Shown here: positions 14,670 through 60,042 of the stretch, one piece after another
Layout of the letters: every line of letters starts with the position of its first letter
How positions within the stretch are numbered: position 1 is the first letter of the stretch
Assembly: GCF_017348835.2 (NCBI RefSeq)
Contig: NZ_CP071375.1
DNA: 64,000 nt
Source of the DNA: Escherichia coli
Lineage (GTDB): Bacteria; Pseudomonadota; Gammaproteobacteria; Enterobacterales; Enterobacteriaceae
Reading direction: 5' to 3' (one strand)
The notes under the pieces: model-generated
Told to the model about the DNA's origin: nothing
Seen by the model: only the letters and a program-made list of their open reading frames with translations
The model's database searches: none
Made by a program: the position numbers and the translations under genes

Positions 14670-16211
<1,542 letters not shown>

Positions 16212-16279
16212 CCTTAAAGAAGCGTACTTTGTAGTGCTCACACAGATTGTCTGATGAAAATGAGCAGTAAAACCTCTAC

Positions 16280-16356
<77 letters not shown>

Positions 16357-16398
16357 AATTTGCACGGCAAATTTGAAGAGGTTTTAACTACATGTTAT

Positions 16399-16474
16399 GG
16401 GGCTATAGCTCAGCTGGGAGAGCGCCTGCTTTGCACGCAGGAGGTCTGCGGTTCGATCCCGCATAGCTCCACCA
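16399..16474 (+). tRNA. alaV: tRNA-Ala (TGC)
   Basis: GGGGCTATAGCTCAG...CTCCACCA; anticodon loop TTTGCAC. Confidence 0.95.
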
Positions 16475-16657
16475 TCTCTGTAGTGATTAAATAAAAAATA
16501 CTTCAGAGTGTACCTGCAAAGGTTCACTGCGAAGTTTTGCTCTTTAAAAATCTGGATCAAGCTGAAAATTGAAACACTGAACAACGAGAGTTGTTCGTGA
16601 GTCTCTCAAATTTTCGCAACACGATGATGAATCGAAAGAAACATCTTCGGGTTGTGA

Positions 16658-19560
<2,903 letters not shown>

Positions 19561-19653
19561 ACAACGCCGAAGGTGTTTTGGCGGATTGAGAGAAGATTTT
19601 CAGCCTGATACAGATTAAATCAGAACGCAGAAGCGGTCTGATAAAACAGAATT

Positions 19654-19773
19654 TGCCTGGCGGCCGTAGCGCGGTGGTCCCACCTGACCCCATGCCGAAC
19701 TCAGAAGTGAAACGCCGTAGCGCCGATGGTAGTGTGGGGTCTCCCCATGCGAGAGTAGGGAACTGCCAGGCAT
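19654..19773 (+). rRNA. rrfH: 5S ribosomal RNA
   Basis: TGCCTGGCGGCCGTAGCGCGGTGG...GGAACTGCCAGGCAT; 120 nt. Confidence 0.95.
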
Positions 19774-19964
19774 CAAATTACGAAGAATGGCAATGACCTT
19801 TGAGGCAGTTCACTACTCGATAAGAGAGTAGGACAAAAGCGAAAGCTTTTGAACGTTGCGAAGCAACGGCCCGAAGGGTGAATCACGAAGTGATTCATAA
19901 ACTGCCAGGCATCAAATTAAGCAGTAAGCCGGTCATAAAACCGGTGGTTGTAAAAGAATTCGGT

Positions 19965-20041
19965 GGAGCGGTAGTTCAGTCGGTTAGAATACCTGCCTGT
20001 CACGCAGGGGGTCGCGGGTTCGAGTCCCGTCCGTTCCGCCA
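19965..20041 (+). tRNA. aspU: tRNA-Asp (GTC), distal tRNA of the rrn operon
   Basis: GGAGCGGTAGTTCAGTCGGTTAGAATACCTGCCTGTCACGCAGG...CCGCCA. Confidence 0.95.
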
Positions 20042-35887: not shown

Positions 35888-36097
35888 TTTCAGCGCCGGA
35901 TCGTGACACTCTATAAGGGTTCAGCGAAGCGATCGCAGTGATCGGCCAGGTCTGTGAAATCGGTGGCAGAACTGAAAGGAATGGACAATAAATCATAATC
36001 AGGGGTGAGGACTGTAGCCATAAGGCAACCTCCGATAAGTAGGCGTTAAAACCACCACCGAAGAGACCAATCTTACGGGTGGTGGAACCGGGCGGAG

Positions 36098-38932
36098 TTG
36101 GTCTTACCGGCCTTATCGGATACCGGCGCATCTTTCGATGCCACCGCCCGGCCCACCATTGAGGTACAGCCGTGCGTGCAACACAAAAAAGACGCTGGCG
36201 CGTCATGTGTCGCCGATAAGACTTATTCAGGAGACCAATCCCGACGCCTGATTTTGCAGACGCGGCATAACGATACAACGATCGCGAAATGGCGACAAAC
36301 CCCTTTCCCGGAAGGCGGCTCGCAAAATCAGAAATATCACAGGGAAAGACAGAGCGCCGCAACGCGGCGGGATGTACCGCTTCACGTACAACGAAAACCA
36401 TTTTCCGGTAGCGGTGGAACTCCCCGGCGAACGCAGGTAACGCTGGAATACGACACCCTGAGCCGGGTGGTGAAAGAGACGGACCCGGCAGGCCGGGTGA
36501 CACAGACGCAGTGGAACGGCAGTTTTGCTGAAATCACGCGCCGGGCACTGGATGACGACCACGTATGGAAGGCGGATTACAACGAACACGGCCAGGTGAT
36601 ACGGGAGACGGACCCGGAAGGGCGCGTCACGCGCTACGGGTATGATGAACAGGGGCTGGCGGTCAGCCGCACGGATGCGCGGGGCGGCGAGGCTGCGCTG
36701 GCGCATGATGCGCGCGGCCAGCTGAGGCGTTACACCGACTGTTCAGGGCGTGCCACGGGTTATGAATACGATGAAGACGGCAACCTGACGGTGGTGACGG
36801 ACGCGGAGGGGAAAACGGTACGTATCCGCTATAACCGTCTGGGACTGCCGGAGACGGTAAATCATCCCGGTAAACAGCAGGACCGTTACACGTGGAACGC
36901 GCTGGGGTTACTGAGCAGCCACCGTCGCATCACAGGCAGTGTGCAGTCCTGGCAGTATACGCCGCGCGGTCTGCTGGCGCTCCACGTAGATGAAGAGAAA
37001 CGGGAGACGCGCTGGCATTATACCGCGGAGGGATGGATTGCCAGTCTGAGCAACGGCAACGGAGCGCTTTACCGGTTCAGTCACGATGCGGACGGACGGC
37101 TGACGGGAGAACAGCGCCCGGACGGTCTGATACGGATGTTTGTGCTGAATGCGGGCGGGTATCCGGTCATCATCCAGACGCAGGGTACAGAAGGCGGGGG
37201 GCGCAATGAACAGCAGGAGCGTGACGCGCTGGGCCGCCTGCTGCGCAGTGACACGCAGCACAGTACACGGACCTTCAGCTACAACCGTCTTGACCAGATA
37301 ACGGAAGTGACGCTCACCCCGACGAAAGAAGGGGAACGGCTGCACCACATGCAGGCGGACACGGTGCGCTTTGCGTATGACCGCAGCGGCTGGCTGACGG
37401 CAGAGCACAGCGTGCACGGCAGCATAAAATATCAGCGTGACGCGCTGGGCAATCCCACCGATATCACGTTGCCGGACGGGCAGCATCTCAGTCATCTTTA
37501 CTACGGCAGCGGACATCTGCTCCAGACGGCACTGGACGGTATCACGGTCAGCGAATATGAGCGTGACAGTCTGCACCGTCAGGTGATGCGCACGCAGGGG
37601 AAACTGGCGACGTTCAGCGGCTACAACGCCGACAACCGGTTAAGCTGGCAGCGCAGTCTGCCAGGTGGCAGCCAGAATCCACAGCAGACCGGTAACCCCC
37701 CGGCGCAGAACGACAGCGTGACGGCGCGGGACTATATCTGGAATGCGGACGGTGAGGTCGGCGGCATCAATGACAAACTGCGCGGTTGCCTGGTGTTCAG
37801 CTATGACCGCAGCGGCTGGCTGACCAGTCGCACGGGTCAGATGTACGACCATGACCATTATTATTACGACAAAGCGGGCAACCTGCTGACGGACGAGTAT
37901 CAGAGCGCGGTGATGGATAACCGCCTGCCGGGCTACGGGCGTGACCGTTACCGCTATAACGAATGGGGCGAACTGACAGAGCGCAGGGACCAGCAACTGG
38001 AGTGGAATGCGCAGGGCCAGTTAACGCGGGTCATCAGCAGCAACAGCGAGACGCGGTATCAGTATGATGCGCTGGGCAGGCGTATCAGCAAGGCGACCAG
38101 CAATCTCCATACCGACCGGGGAGAACGAAGCCGGACAACGTTTGTGTGGGAAGGGGTCCGGCTGTTGCAGGAGACAACGTGGCAGGGAAAGCGGACGTAC
38201 CTGTACGACGCGGAACAGCCGTACACGCCGGTGGCCGCCATCACCGGGCGCGGAGAGAGCCGGAAAATCTGGTATTACCACACGGACCTGACGGGCACGG
38301 TACAGGAGGTGACCGCGGCGGACGGGACGCTGGTGTGGGCGGGCTATCAGGCGGGGTTCGGAGAAAACCGGGGCGACATCAGCAACAGCGGGGCGTATTT
38401 TGAACAGCCGCTGCGGCTGCCGGGGCAGTATTATGATGAAGAGACGGGGCTGCACTATAATCTGTTCAGATATTATGCGCCGGAGTGCGGGAGGTTCGTA
38501 AGCCAGGATCCGATTTCGATCCGGGGTGGTCTGAATCTTTACCGGTATGCGCCGAATCCGATTACTTGGATCGATCCGTGGGGATTGGCAAAGGGGGATT
38601 ATGGTAAAATGCCTACGTTCCCTGGTTGGCAGAAACATCATAATATTCCACAAAATATGGCTACTCATTCGGCAATTGTTGACTCTGGATTTGATATACA
38701 TAATAGTCGTAACATTACAACCTTGCCAAAAACTGGAAGTATAGATACTGCCAGAACAGTGCACAGTGGAATGCACACAGGAGATTATGACAGGATGGTA
38801 AAAAATGCTTTAGATCAAATTGACTCGTTGAATGCTTCCCCTGAGATCAAAAAAATGCATATAGAAGCCTTATCTGATGATATTGGCAATAAATTGAGAA
38901 CAAAACAAATTACGTTAAATGCTGCATGTTGA
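36098..38932 (+). CDS. Rhs / YD-repeat protein, 5'-truncated and frameshifted near 36425, with a C-terminal toxin domain after DPWGL
   Basis: YD repeats (RYxYD, YxYDxxG); frame switch at gaacgcaggtaacgctg; core ends ...NPITWIDPWGL, followed by an AT-rich tip. Confidence 0.7.
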   Translation: MVLPALSDTGASFDATARPTIEVQPCVQHKKDAGASCVADKTYSGDQSRRLILQTRHNDTTIAKWRQTPFPEGGSQNQKYHRERQSAATRRDVPLHVQRKPFSGSGGTPRRTQVTLEYDTLSRVVKETDPAGRVTQTQWNGSFAEITRRALDDDHVWKADYNEHGQVIRETDPEGRVTRYGYDEQGLAVSRTDARGGEAALAHDARGQLRRYTDCSGRATGYEYDEDGNLTVVTDAEGKTVRIRYNRLGLPETVNHPGKQQDRYTWNALGLLSSHRRITGSVQSWQYTPRGLLALHVDEEKRETRWHYTAEGWIASLSNGNGALYRFSHDADGRLTGEQRPDGLIRMFVLNAGGYPVIIQTQGTEGGGRNEQQERDALGRLLRSDTQHSTRTFSYNRLDQITEVTLTPTKEGERLHHMQADTVRFAYDRSGWLTAEHSVHGSIKYQRDALGNPTDITLPDGQHLSHLYYGSGHLLQTALDGITVSEYERDSLHRQVMRTQGKLATFSGYNADNRLSWQRSLPGGSQNPQQTGNPPAQNDSVTARDYIWNADGEVGGINDKLRGCLVFSYDRSGWLTSRTGQMYDHDHYYYDKAGNLLTDEYQSAVMDNRLPGYGRDRYRYNEWGELTERRDQQLEWNAQGQLTRVISSNSETRYQYDALGRRISKATSNLHTDRGERSRTTFVWEGVRLLQETTWQGKRTYLYDAEQPYTPVAAITGRGESRKIWYYHTDLTGTVQEVTAADGTLVWAGYQAGFGENRGDISNSGAYFEQPLRLPGQYYDEETGLHYNLFRYYAPECGRFVSQDPISIRGGLNLYRYAPNPITWIDPWGLAKGDYGKMPTFPGWQKHHNIPQNMATHSAIVDSGFDIHNSRNITTLPKTGSIDTARTVHSGMHTGDYDRMVKNALDQIDSLNASPEIKKMHIEALSDDIGNKLRTKQITLNAAC
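36848..38586 (+). repeat. Rhs conserved core repeat, copy 1
   Basis: About 1.7 kb, near-identical to 39583-41319; 3' part near-identical to 42465-43907. Confidence 0.85.
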
Positions 38933-49708: not shown

Positions 49709-49850
<142 letters not shown>

Positions 49851-51543: not shown

Positions 51544-51822
51544 TTACCCAAAGAGCACCGCGTGAGTTCCAGTTCTCTCAAATCGTAAAAGTTTATCGGT
51601 AAGTTTGTAAATCAGGAGCCAGTCCGGTTCGACATGAGCATCGCGATAACCTTTCCATGAACCCTGCAGCGGGTGGTCTTTATAAACAGCTGGAAGCGGT
51701 AAAGTATTATTGATAAGAAGCGTCATAAGATATTTCAATTTATTCATATCATTATGACGCTTTTGTGCAAGTTTTACATCCTTTGAAAATTGTCCCGAGT
51801 ATTCAATATCCCTTTGAATCAT
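51544..51822 (-). CDS. yafQ: Type II toxin YafQ (RelE-like mRNA interferase)
   Basis: 92 aa; paired with upstream dinJ. Confidence 0.85.
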   Translation of the reverse strand: MIQRDIEYSGQFSKDVKLAQKRHNDMNKLKYLMTLLINNTLPLPAVYKDHPLQGSWKGYRDAHVEPDWLLIYKLTDKLLRFERTGTHAVLFG

Positions 51823-51824
51823 AT

Positions 51825-52085
51825 TTAAATTCCTAATTTATCAAATAAATCATCGGCGTCTTTGGCCTTATGAACATCAACGCCAGCTTCGCTGTTTTTG
51901 ATTGATTGAATGGTTAATTGATTAGGCTCGCGTAAATCAAACGGCAATGCCTTTTCACGCGCGACCTTTGTGAGGGTTATGCGAACCAGGTCAGAGATGG
52001 TCAGCCCCATCCCGGCCAGTACGTCCGCCGCCTGATTCTTCAGATCTTCATCGATTCGGGCGCGAACAAATGCATTTGCAGCCAT
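51825..52085 (-). CDS. dinJ: Antitoxin DinJ
   Basis: 86 aa RHH-type ORF upstream of yafQ. Confidence 0.85.
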   Translation of the reverse strand: MAANAFVRARIDEDLKNQAADVLAGMGLTISDLVRITLTKVAREKALPFDLREPNQLTIQSIKNSEAGVDVHKAKDADDLFDKLGI

Positions 52086-52234: not shown

Positions 52235-53044
52235 TTGTTCAGAAACGATCCGGGATACACTGCAACATTAAAGCATGACCAGCCATTATTGAGTATGTCC
52301 TTGCCGTCGATTCCATCCTTTGTATTGTCGGGATTACTGTTGATTTGTTTGCCGTTTTCTTCATTTGCCAGCGCCACCACATCACATATCTCTTTCAGCT
52401 ACGCCGCCCGCCAGCGGATGCAAAACCGTGCGCGTTTATTAAAACAGTACCAAATCCATCTGAAAAAACAGGCCAGCTATATTGTGGAAGGCAATGCCGA
52501 AAGCAGAAGGGCGCTACGCCTGCACAACCGCGAACAGATAAAACAGCACCCGGAGTGGTTTCCTGGTCCGCTCAAGGCGAACGACCGACGCTGGCAGGCG
52601 CTCGCAGAAAACAACCATTTCTTAAGCAGCGACCACCTGCATAACATCACCGAAGTGGCGATTCACCGCCTAGAGCAGCAGCTTGGCAAGCCTTACGTCT
52701 GGGGCGGCACGCGGCCCGATAAAGGCTTCGACTGTAGCGGGTTGGTTTTTTATGCCTACAACAAGATCCTTGAGGCGAAGCTCCCGCGCACGGCCAATGA
52801 GATGTATCACTACCGCCGGGCAACGATTGTGGCGAATAACGACCTGCGCCGGGGAGATTTGCTGTTTTTCCATATTCACAGTCGTGAGATTGCCGACCAT
52901 ATGGGGGTGTATCTGGGCGATGGGCAATTTATCGAGTCGCCACGCACCGGGGAAACCATTCGGGTAAGCCAGTTAGCTGAACCTTTCTGGCAGGACCATT
53001 TTTTGGGCGCGCGCAGGATTTTGACGGAAGAGACGATTTTGTAA
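52235..53044 (+). CDS. yafL: NlpC/P60-family peptidase YafL
   Basis: 269 aa; catalytic motif DCSGLV. Confidence 0.75.
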   Translation: MFRNDPGYTATLKHDQPLLSMSLPSIPSFVLSGLLLICLPFSSFASATTSHISFSYAARQRMQNRARLLKQYQIHLKKQASYIVEGNAESRRALRLHNREQIKQHPEWFPGPLKANDRRWQALAENNHFLSSDHLHNITEVAIHRLEQQLGKPYVWGGTRPDKGFDCSGLVFYAYNKILEAKLPRTANEMYHYRRATIVANNDLRRGDLLFFHIHSREIADHMGVYLGDGQFIESPRTGETIRVSQLAEPFWQDHFLGARRILTEETIL

Positions 53045-53100
53045 ATGGGTAATATTGACGAACTGGCAAAAGGCCGGATGCCACACGGCATCCGACTTGT

Positions 53101-53457
53101 TTACATCTGGGCTGAAAACTCACGTTCTAAGACATCAACAATGAGCTGGTTTTTTGAAATGGAATGTTGTCTGGCGACGATGGTCAGCCGCGAATCAATG
53201 TGATGAGGAACACGAAGCGTCAGGCGTTTTTGCTCTTCTTCTTCACGAAAAGGGGCAATACCGTCCTCTTCACAATCCGCCATCCACTCATCCAGCGCGC
53301 TTTCGCCCTCACGATATAATGCCTCAATGCTTGTGGCTACAAAGTCACAATAACCGTTTACATTGAGGAATTTGCCGCGAAATGCATTGATATCGGCTTC
53401 AAATGTCACTGCGGCTGGTTGACCTTTAATTGTGATAATGTTCGATGCTTTATTCAT
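53101..53457 (-). CDS. HicB-like antitoxin (N-terminal HicB fold plus C-terminal RHH)
   Basis: 118 aa; C-terminus LTLRVPHHIDSRLTIVARQHSISKNQLIVDVLEREF looks like an RHH DNA-binding domain; overlaps the upstream ORF by 8 nt. Confidence 0.45.
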   Translation of the reverse strand: MNKASNIITIKGQPAAVTFEADINAFRGKFLNVNGYCDFVATSIEALYREGESALDEWMADCEEDGIAPFREEEEQKRLTLRVPHHIDSRLTIVARQHSISKNQLIVDVLEREFSAQM

Positions 53458-53749
53458 AATCTACCCCTACACAGTTAACAAACCACTCCTTAAGACCTGC
53501 TACTGCGCCTTTATCCATCACATTCTTTGGATGTGGCTCATGTGTACTGAATTTGGTCGTTCCAATCTGAAATTTCCTTCTGGACCCATTGTTATTTTTT
53601 ATTGTTCCACCCACCGCTTTAATGAGCGCAACAACATCATCCCATTTAATTCCAGATTTTGGCGGCTCCGTCATTACATCGTCGAATGTTTTTCTATGGC
53701 GGGAGCCTAGCGCGCTGACCTTAATCATACTATCAATCCATGACATCAT
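53450..53749 (-). CDS. Putative HicA-like toxin partner (uncertain)
   Basis: 99 aa ORF translationally coupled to the HicB-like gene; family assignment is by position only. Confidence 0.3.
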   Translation of the reverse strand: MMSWIDSMIKVSALGSRHRKTFDDVMTEPPKSGIKWDDVVALIKAVGGTIKNNNGSRRKFQIGTTKFSTHEPHPKNVMDKGAVAGLKEWFVNCVGVDYE

Positions 53750-53832
53750 TGTATGGTGTCATCGTAGTATGTTTGCAATGTGACGTCAATCAATGGTGTC
53801 AGATGCATGCAAAGCATGGAAAAGAATCCCCA

Positions 53833-55572
53833 TCAACTCAACGCCCCCATAATCTTCAACTCCAGCTCATCCGGCACTTCGTTATACGACAGCACATGCA
53901 GCCCCGGCGCAAACAACCTTGCGTAGCGCGCTAGCAAAGGGCGCAGCTGCGGCGGCACCAGCAGCACCGGGTCTTTCCCCGCCGCTTTCATCTGCTCCTT
54001 CACCTGCGGCATCGTGCTCTGGAACTGGTTGAGCATATTCGGGTCGACCGGCACGCTGTCGAGCATCACTTTGCCGCCCTGTTGCGCCTGATTCACCACG
54101 TTGGTCAGCAGATTTTCCAGCTCATTATTCAGCGTATACACCGTCAGCTCCTGCTTGCGAACGAAAGGATGAGTAATGCTGCGCCGCAGCGCCAGGCGCA
54201 CATCGGCCGCCAGCAGAATATGATCTTTGGTCACCGCGCTACTGGCGACCAGCACGGTGGCGATGGTGACGATGTCGCGCAGGGAAACGCCTTCGGTCAG
54301 CAGCGCACGGTACACTTTCAGCAACTGGCTGTAATTCAGCGCCGCGCTCAAATCCTCCGCCAGGCGCGGTGCCATTGACGACAAACGGTTATGCAACTGC
54401 GTGATGTCATCATAGTTAAACAAATCAGGAATATAACTGCGCACAATCTTATTCACATGGGTGGCAATCACGCTGGCGCTGTCGATCACCTGATACCCCA
54501 TATTCAGCGCCTTCGCTTTCTGCGCAGGCTGGATCCAGGTGACTGGCATCCCATACGCCGGGTCGTTCCCCAGCACGCCGTCTATCTCGCCGTAGGTTTC
54601 GCTGGAGGGCAGGGCCATCAGTTTATCCGCCGGAATATCCGCTTCATCAGCCTTAATGCCGTTGATGAAAATGGCGTACTGGCTGGGCTTGAGGCGGAAA
54701 TTTTCCCTAATGCGGATCTCCGGCAGCAGCACGCCGTTGCCGTCGGATATCACCTGCCGCACGCCGCGGATCCGCTGGGTGAGCGGGTTACCCTGTGCTT
54801 TATCGACCAGCGCTACTAGCTTGTAGCCAAGGCTTAAGCTGATGGGTTCGATCAGCGGAATGGTTTCCCAACTGACCTGTTGCTCGCTGGTTTCAGTGAT
54901 GGTGCGGGTCAGCGTTTCGAGGCTTTTCTCCTCCGCCTCTGCCGCCTGCGGCTGTTTGCTCATTCGCCAGCCGGTAAAGCCAAGCAGGGCGCTGAACATC
55001 AGGAACGGCAGGTGCGGCATCCCCGGCACCACTGCCAGCACAAACATAATTCCGGTAGCGGTGTAGAGCACCGACGGGCTTGCCAGCAGTTGGTTACGCA
55101 CGTCATGGGCGATATCGCCGTTGTCGCTGACGCGGGTGACGATAATCGCCGCTGCGGTGGAGAGCAGCAGGGAAGGGATCTGCGCCACCAGCCCATCGCC
55201 GATGGTCATCAGCACATATTGCTGGAAGGCGGCATCGGCGCTCAGGTTGTATTTGAAGATCCTGATACAGACGCCGCCGATCAGGTTGATCGCCAGAATC
55301 ATCATCCCGGCGATGGCATCCCCGCGCACAAACTTCGATGCCCCGTCCATCGCGCCGTAGAAATCGGCTTCGCTGGCGACATCTTTACGCCGGGTTTGCG
55401 CCTGCGCCTGGTTGATCAATCCGGCGTTAAGGTCGGCGTCAATCGCCATCTGCTTGCCGGGCATCGCGTCAAGGGTAAAGCGGGCAGAAACCTCGGAAAT
55501 ACGCTCGGCCCCTTTGGTGACGACAATAAAGTTGATTGTCAACAGCGTCAGTAAATCCGAGCGTGAAAGCAT
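53833..55572 (-). pseudogene. lfhA: FlhA-like flagellar export protein fragment (Flag-2 remnant)
   Basis: 579 aa ORF homologous to FlhA but lacking the N-terminal ~120 aa. Confidence 0.7.
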
Positions 55573-58828: not shown

Positions 58829-59716
58829 TCAGGCTGCCAGATCATTATTTCCGATGGAAGCATAATAAGCTTTTTCTGCTTCTGCCGGAGGAATATGGCC
58901 CAGCCTTTCCAGCAATCGTCGATTGTTATACCAGTCCACCCACGTTAGTGTGGCCAGTTCCACTTCTGTCCGGTTTTTCCAGCTCTTACGGTGTATTACC
59001 TCCGCTTTGTAAAGACCATTGATGCTCTCCGCCATCGCGTTGTCATACGAGTCGCCAGTACTCCCTGTTGATGCCAGTAATCCGGCTTCCTTAAGCCGCT
59101 GCGTGTAGGCCAGCGATACATACTGAGAACCTTTATCACTGTGATGGATTGTGCCGGACGGCCGACGGGCCCACAACGCCTGCTCCAGTGCATCCAGCAC
59201 GAATGTTGTTTCCATGGATGATGAGACCTGCCATCCCACGATGTATCCGGCGAACACATCAATGATGAACGCCACATAAACGAAGCCCTGCCATGTGCTT
59301 ACCCAGGTAAAATCAGCCACCCACAACTGGTCTGGACGTTCTGCCACGAACTGACGGTTTACGCGGTCGCATGCGGCAACGGCTTTCCGGCTGACGGTAG
59401 TGCGGACCTTTTTACCCCGGAGAACACCGGCAAGTCCCATAACTGCCATGAGACGTGCCACAGTGCATCTGGCCACTCTGATACCTTCCCGTAACAACTG
59501 ACGCCAGACTTTACGCACACCGTATACCTGGTGATTTTCATCGTATACGCGCTGTATCTCTTTCTTCAGCCAGTCATCGTGCTGCGCACGGGCACTGCGT
59601 TTATCCGGATGATGTCGCTGTTGCTGACAATGGTAATACGTTGACGGGGCAATATGCAGTTCGCTGCATACCGGTCCGACCCCGTACTGCTCACGCAGCT
59701 TATCCAGCAGTGGCAT
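58829..59716 (-). CDS. IS3-family transposase OrfB (DDE integrase domain)
   Basis: 295 aa rve-domain ORF; probably expressed as an OrfAB fusion by -1 frameshifting. Confidence 0.85.
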   Translation of the reverse strand: MPLLDKLREQYGVGPVCSELHIAPSTYYHCQQQRHHPDKRSARAQHDDWLKKEIQRVYDENHQVYGVRKVWRQLLREGIRVARCTVARLMAVMGLAGVLRGKKVRTTVSRKAVAACDRVNRQFVAERPDQLWVADFTWVSTWQGFVYVAFIIDVFAGYIVGWQVSSSMETTFVLDALEQALWARRPSGTIHHSDKGSQYVSLAYTQRLKEAGLLASTGSTGDSYDNAMAESINGLYKAEVIHRKSWKNRTEVELATLTWVDWYNNRRLLERLGHIPPAEAEKAYYASIGNNDLAA

Positions 59717-60042
59717 TATTTTTTCCAGAGGCGGTCGAACTCCGCCTTCGCAAAATAAGCGGAAGCCTGGCGAAGGATATCGTTACTGCGGCGCAGTTCA
59801 CGATTTTCACGTTCCAGCTCTTTCAGACGCTGACGTTCAGCGGTGGTGAGTCCACCATCACCACTCCCGGTATCCCGCTCATGCTGGCGAACCCAGACAC
59901 GCAGAGTCTCCGGCGTACAGCCAATCTTTGGGGCAATGGAACAAATTGCCGCCCACTGTGAGTCATATTCATCCTGACTTTCCAGAACCATACGAATCGC
60001 CCGCTGACGGACTTCGGGGGAAAAACGAGTATTTTTAGTCAT
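59716..60042 (-). CDS. IS3-family transposase OrfA (HTH)
   Basis: 108 aa, [22 protein letters not shown]...; leucine-zipper-like C-terminus. Confidence 0.85.

What the first reader, a model, noticed from the sequence alone, without database searches (positions are those of the whole stretch)
53101..53749. Two-gene HicB-like module between yafL and lfhA, where K-12 has rayT
Two overlapping minus-strand ORFs (99 aa and 118 aa) sit in this intergenic position. The downstream one has a C-terminal RHH-like DNA-binding region, typical of HicB antitoxins; the upstream one is an unassigned partner. This is a putative toxin-antitoxin module, a few kb from dinJ-yafQ.
Basis: inference. Interest (0 to 1): 0.45.

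Follow-up and report, generated by a model that had tools for sequence, protein, structure and literature searches.

The report
Known HicAB toxin-antitoxin cassette, E. coli
The two small genes are a HicA toxin and HicB antitoxin pair that in about a quarter of E. coli strains replaces the rayT gene of K-12; this was already annotated and published, so it is ordinary, apart from an untested change in the toxin's active site.

Summary
Two overlapping minus-strand ORFs fill the yafL-lfhA intergenic slot, where K-12 has REP-rayT-REP.

The downstream ORF is a HicB antitoxin: a partial RNase H fold followed by a C-terminal RHH. The "unassigned partner" is the HicA toxin. Both pass Pfam gathering thresholds, and their predicted folds match solved HicA and HicB structures best. 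HicA most likely starts at 53728 (92 aa, not 99).

The cassette is not new. RefSeq annotates it as HicA/HicB in 1479 of 5426 complete E. coli genomes. Ton-Hoang et al. 2012 (PMC3333891) described hicA-hicB replacing tnpAREP between yafL and fhiA in B1 strains.

Evidence that it is functional:
- All 16 coding differences from the IAI1 allele are synonymous.
- 109 genomes keep hicB without hicA, and none keep hicA without hicB.
- Four TGACGTCA-like boxes bracket the promoter, and this layout recurs in several other genera.

One non-routine point: this HicA belongs to a long subfamily. The catalytic His of characterised HicAs is Arg here (GSR), and two other histidines (HxPHP) are nearly invariant. 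I found no experimental work on this subfamily.

Verdict: already known, low interest.

The parts
53045..53832 (-). Whole hicAB cassette: the complete yafL-lfhA intergenic region, an alternative to the 896-bp REP-rayT-REP cassette of K-12
   Evidence: The K-12 alignment loses homology at the yafL stop codon and regains it at the lfhA stop codon. The cassette is present in 1479 of 5426 complete E. coli genomes, and the rayT cassette in 3564. GC is about 42-47%, against 55-58% in the flanks.
53450..53728 (-). hicA, 92-aa HicA-family toxin (the 99-aa ORF extends to 53749 but is probably not translated from there)
53101..53457 (-). hicB, 118-aa HicB antitoxin: N-terminal partial RNase H fold (about residues 7-65), acidic low-confidence linker (about 66-78), C-terminal RHH (about 78-117)
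   Evidence: Pfam HicB scores 40.5 bits against GA 21. The RefSeq protein is WP_001030484.1. Foldseek's top nine hits are HicB antitoxins, followed by Arc, CopG and AtaR RHH repressors.
53761..53789 (-). Predicted sigma-70 promoter: TTGACG (53789-53784), 17 nt, TACGAT (53766-53761)
   Evidence: Found by the promoter scan. Both hexamers are unchanged in the IAI1 allele, while 4 differences fall around them. A -35 and -10 stand in the same place relative to the boxes in the other genera.
53741..53801 (.). Four 8-bp palindrome-like boxes (TGAYRYCA; the TGACGTCA type) at 53794-53801, 53781-53788 (overlaps the -35), 53754-53761 (abuts the -10) and 53741-53748. They form two pairs with 13-bp centre-to-centre spacing and are the putative HicB (RHH) operators.
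   Evidence: Four of the 17 distinct sites matching this pattern in the 64-kb window lie in this 61-bp stretch. The same O1-5nt-O2 ... O3-5nt-O4 layout occurs upstream of homologous hicA genes in Salmonella, Xenorhabdus and Brenneria and in a metagenome-derived Enterobacterales-like contig, and partly in Providencia and Proteus, while the sequence between the boxes differs. Binding itself is inferred.
53737..53739 (-). GGA Shine-Dalgarno-like element, 8 nt upstream of the 53728 ATG
   Evidence: Read from the sequence. An AGGA/GGGA/GGA element sits at the same distance in all 8 loci compared.
53450..53468 (-). hicA-hicB junction: AGGGG (53468-53464) ahead of the hicB ATG (53457), and the 8-nt overlap ATGAATAA. 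This suggests translational coupling.
   Evidence: Read from the sequence. The same 8-nt overlap is found in every homologous locus fetched.
53075..53094 (.). GC-rich hairpin (CGGATGCC-ACAC-GGCATCCG) between the convergent yafL and hicB stop codons; a likely bidirectional terminator
   Evidence: Found by the terminator scan and as inverted repeat I1. The stem is unchanged in IAI1, whose differences fall in the loop and just outside the stem. Function is inferred.

Best explanation
This is a functional type II HicAB toxin-antitoxin operon, hicA first and hicB second, matching Gerdes class 4 (HicB with a C-terminal RHH). It was acquired horizontally and occupies the yafL-lfhA intergenic slot in place of the REP-rayT-REP cassette. 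Shown here: gene identity, folds, operon layout, purifying selection, population distribution, and a conserved box architecture around the promoter. Inferred: (1) One promoter (TTGACG-17-TACGAT) drives a bicistronic mRNA, and hicB is translationally coupled to hicA through the ATGAATAA overlap. (2) The N-terminal partial RNase H domain of HicB binds and masks HicA. The RHH of HicB dimerises and binds the four TGACGTCA-like boxes over the -35 and just after the -10, so the operon represses itself. (3) When HicB is depleted, for example by proteolysis at its acidic disordered linker, free HicA arrests growth, most likely by ribosome-independent RNA cleavage as in characterised HicAs. (4) The position of the canonical catalytic His is Arg50 in this toxin. 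Catalysis, if any, probably depends on His63, with or without His66. His63 lies at the end of beta3, opposite residue 50 in the beta2-beta3 hairpin.
For: - Prior annotation: RefSeq names the pair HicA/HicB. PMC3333891 names them hicA-hicB at this exact locus.
- Selection: 16 of 16 coding differences between the window and the IAI1 allele are synonymous. pS is 0.18 for hicA and 0.065 for hicB, and pN is 0. On a simple neutral expectation this has P of about 2e-11.
- Orphan asymmetry: hicB is present in 1479 genomes and hicA in 1370. That gives 109 hicB-only genomes and no hicA-only genome, as expected if HicA is harmful without HicB.
- Toxin decay: truncated HicA variants occur in E. coli (P0021, P0028, P0033).
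- Operators: four boxes cluster in 61 bp, and their layout is conserved across genera.
- Mobility: the same 92-aa plus 115-117-aa overlapping pair occurs on a Salmonella colicin plasmid, in a Xenorhabdus prophage region and in unrelated core intergenic sites.
Against: No toxicity, neutralisation, RNase or DNA-binding experiment exists for this module or, as far as I could find, for any member of its long-HicA subfamily.

The residue that is essential in every characterised HicA (His24 in Burkholderia and Neisseria numbering; PMC11594946 and PMC12297915) is Arg here. It is His in only 1 of 149 family representatives. RNase activity therefore cannot simply be transferred by homology.

Other limits: PADLOC has no model matching either protein. 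The Foldseek E-values are weak (0.02-0.3) because the domains are small. The 109 hicB-only genomes count genomes, not independent deletion events.
Confidence: 0.8

Rival explanations
1. The pair is a domesticated or non-toxic relative of HicAB. Having lost the catalytic His, this HicA would be a catalytically inert RNA-binding or co-repressor protein, and the two proteins would act together only as a small regulatory unit.
For: Arg replaces the essential catalytic His. Purifying selection shows that the genes are used, not that HicA is toxic. There are no experimental data.
Against: The orphan pattern is strongly asymmetric, with 109 hicB-only genomes and no hicA-only genome. Truncated hicA alleles recur. 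This is the usual signature of a harmful toxin gene. His63 and His66 are each present in 142 of 149 family representatives and lie next to the old catalytic position, which suggests a retained active site. The cassette sits on a colicin plasmid and in a prophage region, like addiction or defence modules.
Confidence: 0.12
2. The mechanism is the same, but the biological role is abortive-infection phage defence rather than a selfish addiction cassette or stress module.
For: Gerdes 2024 (PMC10865869) argues that HicA modules are largely defence elements. The Xenorhabdus homologue lies in a prophage region beside two other TA-like pairs. The E. coli slot is a variable site that holds alternative cassettes.
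Against: Neither protein hits any PADLOC model. In E. coli the neighbours are housekeeping genes or pseudogenes (yafL, lfhA remnant), not a defence island. No phage data exist.
Confidence: 0.25
3. One reading: a HicB-like antitoxin paired with a toxin of a new, unassigned family.
For: NCBIfam has no model that names the upstream protein. Sequence searches against PDB chains find no HicA, even with a family profile.
Confidence: 0.03

Closest known systems
hicA-hicB cassette of E. coli B1 strains such as IAI1, between yafL and fhiA/lfhA (Ton-Hoang et al. 2012, PMC3333891); RefSeq WP_000598760.1 and WP_001030484.1
   Same: It is the same element. The locus is the same and both proteins are 100% identical to those of IAI1 and PapM-32-1. 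It replaces tnpAREP (rayT) and its BIMEs, as published.
   Different: Only the DNA allele differs: 96.7% identity to IAI1 over the cassette, with every coding difference synonymous. The paper named the genes but did not analyse them.
Class 4 hicAB operons (hicA upstream, HicB with C-terminal RHH), e.g. Yersinia pestis HicA3B3 (4P78/4P7D) and Burkholderia pseudomallei HicAB (6G26)
   Same: The gene order is the same. [quoted passage not shown] HicB has a partial RNase H domain followed by an RHH. Palindromic boxes lie in the module's own promoter.
   Different: HicA is 92 aa rather than about 60, because of an extra conserved N-terminal helix (residues 9-19). The catalytic His (GSH) is Arg (GSR), and an HxPHP motif is nearly invariant. 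Sequence similarity to the solved proteins is too low for phmmer or hmmsearch to detect.
E. coli K-12 HicAB (b4532/b1438; 6HPB)
   Same: It has the same toxin and antitoxin folds and the same hicA-hicB order.
   Different: The locus is different (1.51 Mb in K-12). K-12 HicB has an HTH rather than an RHH (class 3, PMC10865869). K-12 hicA and hicB are 45 bp apart rather than overlapping. K-12 HicA is 58 aa and keeps the catalytic His23.
dinJ-yafQ, the neighbouring type II TA (window 51544-52085)
   Same: It is also a small bicistronic type II TA with an RHH antitoxin and an RNase toxin, and its presence also varies among strains.
   Different: The toxin family is unrelated (RelE/YafQ, ribosome-dependent), and the gene order is antitoxin first.

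Membership tests
HicA toxin family (Pfam PF07927) | Match to the family profile above the curated gathering score | tested here: met
   30.2 bits against a cut-off of 27, covering residues 36-84 of the 99-aa ORF. The margin is thin. The long-family profile also aligns without gaps to a canonical 59-aa HicA at 19.5 bits.
HicA toxin family (Pfam PF07927) | dsRBD-like alpha1-beta1-beta2-beta3-alpha2 fold | tested here: met
HicA toxin family (Pfam PF07927) | Catalytic histidine at the start of beta2 (G-x-H; His24 in B. pseudomallei and N. gonorrhoeae numbering), essential in every HicA where it was mutated | tested here: not met
   The motif is G48-S49-R50. The profile alignment puts R50 opposite His24. 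Among 149 family representatives this position is Arg in 115 and His in 1. Membership therefore rests on homology, not on the canonical active site.
HicA toxin family (Pfam PF07927) | Conserved glycine two residues before the catalytic position (Gly22) | tested here: met
   G48 is Gly in 145 of 149 representatives.
HicA toxin family (Pfam PF07927) | Ribosome-independent RNase activity and growth arrest on over-expression | not testable with these tools
   The only support is indirect: 109 hicB-only genomes against no hicA-only genome.
HicB antitoxin family (Pfam PF05534; class 4 hicAB of PMC10865869) | Match to the family profile above the gathering score | tested here: met
   40.5 bits against a cut-off of 21, covering residues 60-110.
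HicB antitoxin family (Pfam PF05534; class 4 hicAB of PMC10865869) | N-terminal partial RNase H fold | tested here: met
   The AF2 model has E7-10, E13-20, E25-30, E38-41 and H44-65. Foldseek's top nine hits are all HicB or HicB-like: 6g26_A (probability 1.00), 4p7d, 4p78_A, 2dsy, 6u0i and 6hpb_B.
HicB antitoxin family (Pfam PF05534; class 4 hicAB of PMC10865869) | C-terminal ribbon-helix-helix DNA-binding domain | tested here: met
   The model has helices 85-97 and 102-117, preceded by the conserved LTLRV segment. Foldseek hits include Arc (1bdv), CopG (1ea4) and AtaR (6gts), with TM 0.46-0.72 normalised to the target. The ribbon strand is not modelled in the monomer, as expected for a strand that forms on dimerisation.
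HicB antitoxin family (Pfam PF05534; class 4 hicAB of PMC10865869) | hicA upstream of hicB in one operon | tested here: met
   The two genes overlap by 8 nt, there is a single upstream promoter, and no promoter-like site precedes hicB on the minus strand. All homologous loci fetched have the same layout.
Type II toxin-antitoxin systems in general | Autoregulation through palindromic operators in the module's own promoter | tested here: inconclusive
   Four conserved TGACGTCA-like boxes lie over the -35 and after the -10, and the arrangement is conserved across genera. Binding and repression were not tested.
Type II toxin-antitoxin systems in general | The antitoxin neutralises the toxin by direct binding, with a kill-and-rescue phenotype | not testable with these tools

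The most novel reading that the evidence does not exclude
This HicA represents a large, experimentally unstudied 'long HicA' subfamily. It has at least 361 clusters at 50% identity and members in Enterobacterales, and its plasmid-borne members include Piscirickettsia, rhizobia, Deinococcus, Legionella and others. In this subfamily the catalytic histidine appears to have moved from the start of beta2 (now Arg50) to the cross-strand neighbour at the end of beta3 (His63, in the HxPHP motif), and a conserved N-terminal helix has been added. If so, these toxins keep RNase activity with a rebuilt active site, and possibly a different substrate preference. Alternatively they may act by different chemistry altogether.
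Probability: 0.4. Interest if true: 0.4.

Novelty: already known. Interest (0 to 1): 0.15.

Why it matters
As found, it matters little. It is one more strain-variable type II TA cassette in E. coli, already named in RefSeq and already reported as the element that displaced rayT/tnpAREP in phylogroup B1.

Two things here could be useful:
- It is a concrete, easily testable operator model: four TGACGTCA-type boxes in two 13-bp-spaced pairs around the promoter.
- The HicA subfamily to which the most widespread second HicAB of E. coli belongs lacks the histidine on which every mechanistic study of HicA rests. Annotation transfer of 'mRNA interferase' to this subfamily is therefore unverified. A simple kill-and-rescue test with H63A, H66A and R50H mutants would settle it.

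Tried and rejected
- NCBIfam gave only sub-threshold noise for both proteins, and PADLOC gave nothing.
- phmmer of either protein against PDB sequences found no HicA or HicB, and neither did hmmsearch with a 15-sequence HicA profile. Fold comparison was needed.
- MAFFT misaligned K-12 HicA when it was added to the family alignment. hhalign of the family against the single K-12 sequence gave a spurious 14-column match. I replaced these with hmmsearch of the family profile against a canonical 59-aa HicA found by chance in locus L011.
- I first read the operator as one 10-nt inverted repeat (53740-53762) with an outer inverted repeat (I3 and I4). Comparing loci from other genera showed that the conserved unit is the 8-bp box in two pairs, so I dropped that reading.
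- I asked whether the experimentally studied IncI2-plasmid, S. meliloti, P. aeruginosa or N. gonorrhoeae HicAs belong to this subfamily. The papers report the canonical His24 for the last three. The organism tally of a tblastn search of plasmids, and the 30 rows it listed, gave no sign of IncI2 plasmids. None of these supplies experimental evidence for this subfamily.
- Literature searches for the RefSeq accessions found nothing.
- Rfam has no family in 53000-53900.
- The hairpin after hicB is REP-like in composition. I did not call it a REP, and PMC3333891 reports no BIMEs in hicAB strains.

Full report
**1. The observation**

The window has two minus-strand ORFs at the stated coordinates: 53450..53749 (99 aa) and 53101..53457 (118 aa). 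They overlap by 8 nt, ATGAATAA, so the hicB ATG lies inside the last hicA codons. The neighbours are as described: yafL (52235..53044, +), a 579-aa lfhA remnant (53833..55572, -), and dinJ-yafQ (51544..52085, -). dinJ-yafQ is about 1 kb from the module, not "a few kb".

K-12 MG1655 has rayT flanked by REPs in this slot. A pairwise alignment shows that homology stops at the yafL stop codon and resumes at the lfhA stop codon. The entire 788-bp intergenic region is therefore an alternative to the 896-bp K-12 cassette. The cassette has lower GC (about 42-47%) than its flanks (55-58%).

**2. What the two genes are**

- Pfam places the upstream protein in HicA_toxin (PF07927), at 30.2 bits against a gathering score of 27.
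- Pfam places the downstream protein in HicB (PF05534), at 40.5 bits against 21.
- NCBIfam and PADLOC give nothing usable. Sequence searches of PDB chains find no HicA or HicB, even with a family profile. This pair is therefore distant from the solved examples, and I tested the folds.

HicB fold. The model (pLDDT 81.6) has four strands and a long helix, then a low-confidence acidic linker, then two C-terminal helices preceded by the conserved LTLRV segment. The nine best Foldseek matches are all HicB antitoxins, followed by the RHH repressors Arc, CopG and AtaR.

In the Gerdes scheme this is a class 4 hicAB operon: hicA upstream, HicB with a C-terminal RHH (PMC10865869).

**3. It is already known**

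RefSeq annotates the pair as "type II toxin-antitoxin system HicA family toxin" (WP_000598760.1, 92 aa) and "HicB family antitoxin" (WP_001030484.1, 118 aa).

Ton-Hoang et al. [quoted passage not shown] They reported that 24 strains, nearly all of clade B1 (e.g. IAI1), have no trace of tnpAREP or its BIMEs. [quoted passage not shown] That is the present finding.

Counts in 5426 complete genomes:

| Feature | Genomes |
|---|---|
| hicAB cassette, any match | 1479 (27%) |
| hicAB cassette, at least 80% covered | 1369 |
| rayT cassette, at least 80% covered | 3564 |

The remainder is consistent with the BIME-only state the paper describes for B2 strains.

**4. The start of hicA**

The 99-aa ORF probably over-extends the gene, for five reasons:
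- Homologues in Salmonella, Xenorhabdus, Providencia, Proteus, Brenneria and Photorhabdus are almost all 92 aa.
- RefSeq starts the gene at 53728.
- The one nucleotide difference from IAI1 inside the seven extra codons changes the amino acid, while all 16 differences in the rest of the two genes are silent.
- The two upstream ATGs lie inside a conserved operator box.
- A GGA/AGGA element sits 7-11 nt before the 53728-equivalent ATG in all eight loci compared.

**5. Evidence that the module is functional**

- Selection. The window and IAI1 alleles differ at 11 sites in hicA and 5 in hicB, all synonymous. pS is 0.184 and 0.065, and pN is 0. If differences fell at random on synonymous and non-synonymous sites, this would have a probability of about 2e-11.
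- Orphan asymmetry. hicB is found in 1479 genomes, all at 80% coverage or more, and hicA in 1370. Every genome that matches any part of the cassette has hicB. So 109 genomes carry hicB alone and none carries hicA alone. Strain 98200 is an example in which hicA is cleanly missing. Truncated HicA proteins also occur in E. coli. This is what one expects if HicA is harmful without HicB. It counts genomes, not independent events.
- Mobility. The same overlapping pair (92 aa plus 115-117 aa) sits in several settings. It is on a Salmonella IncFII colicin plasmid and in a Xenorhabdus prophage region beside a canonical HicAB and a RelE/HTH pair. It also lies in unrelated intergenic sites of core genes in Providencia, Brenneria and Proteus.

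**6. Regulation (inferred)**

A sigma-70-like promoter, TTGACG-17-TACGAT, lies at 53789..53761 on the minus strand. Both hexamers are unchanged in IAI1, although four differences fall around them.

Four 8-bp boxes of the self-complementary TGACGTCA type surround the promoter:
- 53794-53801
- 53781-53788, overlapping the -35
- 53754-53761, abutting the -10
- 53741-53748

The degenerate pattern TGAYRYCA has 17 distinct sites in the 64-kb window, and four of them lie in this 61-bp stretch.

The arrangement is two boxes 13 bp apart centre to centre, then the -10, then two more boxes 13 bp apart. It recurs upstream of the homologous hicA genes in Salmonella, Xenorhabdus and Brenneria and in a metagenome contig. 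It recurs partly in Providencia and Proteus. The sequence between the boxes is not conserved. These boxes are the natural candidates for HicB RHH operators, occluding the -35 and the transcription start.

A GC-rich hairpin (53075-53094) between the convergent yafL and hicB ends looks like a bidirectional terminator.

**7. The one non-routine point: the active site**

Every HicA whose mechanism has been examined depends on a histidine at the start of beta2, in a G-x-H motif. These are His24 in B. pseudomallei and N. gonorrhoeae, His28 in Y. pestis HicA3 and His23 in E. coli (PMC11594946; PMC12297915; PMC4848639).

Here the motif is G48-S49-R50 (92-aa numbering). A full HMMER scan of 1.84 billion representatives finds 361 relatives at E<=1e-3. 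Their matches cover residues ~5-85 of the query, so the N-terminal helix is part of a distinct long-HicA family. The family consensus is KHxKTLxxIFxxP...W.D...L..ALG...GSR...HxPHP...KGAV..R.FL.

Residue counts among 149 representatives:

| Position | Residue counts |
|---|---|
| 50 | Arg in 115, His in 1 |
| 63 | His in 142 |
| 66 | His in 142 |

The single member with GSH lacks both other histidines.

The family profile aligns without gaps to a canonical 59-aa HicA that happens to lie in the Xenorhabdus locus. In that alignment GSr lies over GSH, and lhrPHp lies over LTIPHP. So:
- R50 corresponds to the catalytic His24.
- H66 corresponds to the conserved His40, which is dispensable in N. gonorrhoeae and described there as close in space to His24.
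- H63 is a family-specific histidine.

In the model, beta2 (50-55) and beta3 (58-63) form a hairpin, so residues 50 and 63 are cross-strand partners (the pairing is my inference from the strand limits). A plausible reading is that the catalytic histidine has moved to the neighbouring strand. I found no experimental study of any member of this subfamily. The RNase mechanism is therefore inferred, not shown.

**8. Verdict**

The element and its replacement of rayT are already annotated and published, so novelty is "already known" and interest is low. What remains of interest is the untested active-site variant of the long-HicA subfamily and the operator model. Both can be checked with simple experiments.

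Noticed in passing
window 51544-52085 (dinJ-yafQ); L001 2938-3251; L005 1950-2251: dinJ-yafQ is itself a presence/absence polymorphism. Strains PapM-32-1 and 98200 go from dpaA to yafL across only about 300 bp with no dinJ-yafQ. The window, K-12 and IAI1 all carry it. PapM-32-1 has a hicAB cassette 100% identical to the window's but lacks dinJ-yafQ, so the two adjacent TA cassettes assort independently.
   Followed up: partly
window 52745-53044 (3' end of yafL) and 53833-54132 (3' end of lfhA): The flanks are more diverged from IAI1 than the cassette is. There are 22 differences in the last 300 nt of yafL (7%) and about 13 in 300 nt of lfhA, against 16 in 629 coding nt of hicAB. Most of the yafL differences are spaced at multiples of 3. 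This suggests old alleles or recombination around the slot.
   Followed up: no
L005 3057-3410 (E. coli strain 98200), plus 108 other genomes: There are 109 complete E. coli genomes that keep hicB (here 117 aa, WP_024166466.1) with hicA missing, leaving only about 78 bp to lfhA in strain 98200. Thirteen of the 1479 hicB copies are unusually diverged (90-95% identity).
   Followed up: partly
L006 5703-7950 and 8801-9502 (Salmonella contig DBAJXD010000049.1): The Salmonella homologue of this hicAB (about 64% HicA identity) lies on an IncFII-type replicon. It is directly next to a cloacin/colicin DNase, immunity and lysis operon and a ParA-like gene.
   Followed up: no
L011 2073-3689 (Xenorhabdus bovienii contig): This region is a cluster of three TA-like pairs: a canonical 59-aa HicA with a HicB_lk_antitox protein, a RelE-like protein with an HTH protein, and the long HicA/HicB. 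They sit between phage genes (NinX, LysC).
   Followed up: no
NZ_AP023206.1 390257-390532 (E. coli 'plasmid' of 404 kb): An identical copy of hicA-hicB lies on a record typed as a 404-kb plasmid. Three of the 1479 E. coli copies are on records typed as plasmids. This could be a chromosome-derived segment or an assembly or typing issue.
   Followed up: no
window 36075-36263: Rfam finds a C4 antisense RNA (36075-36163, -) and isrK (36185-36263, -) side by side. My guess, not checked, is that this marks a phage- or satellite-derived region about 17 kb upstream of the finding.
   Followed up: no
window 59645-59761 and 49715-49792: Rfam finds an ALIL pseudoknot (59645-59761, -), which to my knowledge is the frameshift signal of IS3-family insertion sequences; it overlaps the start of a 295-aa ORF at 58829-59716. 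It also finds naRNA4 (49715-49792, +).
   Followed up: no
window 14670-20038: A complete rRNA operon (16S, two tRNAs, StyR-44 element, 23S, 5S, tRNA) occupies 14.7-20.0 kb. It is unrelated to the finding.
   Followed up: no
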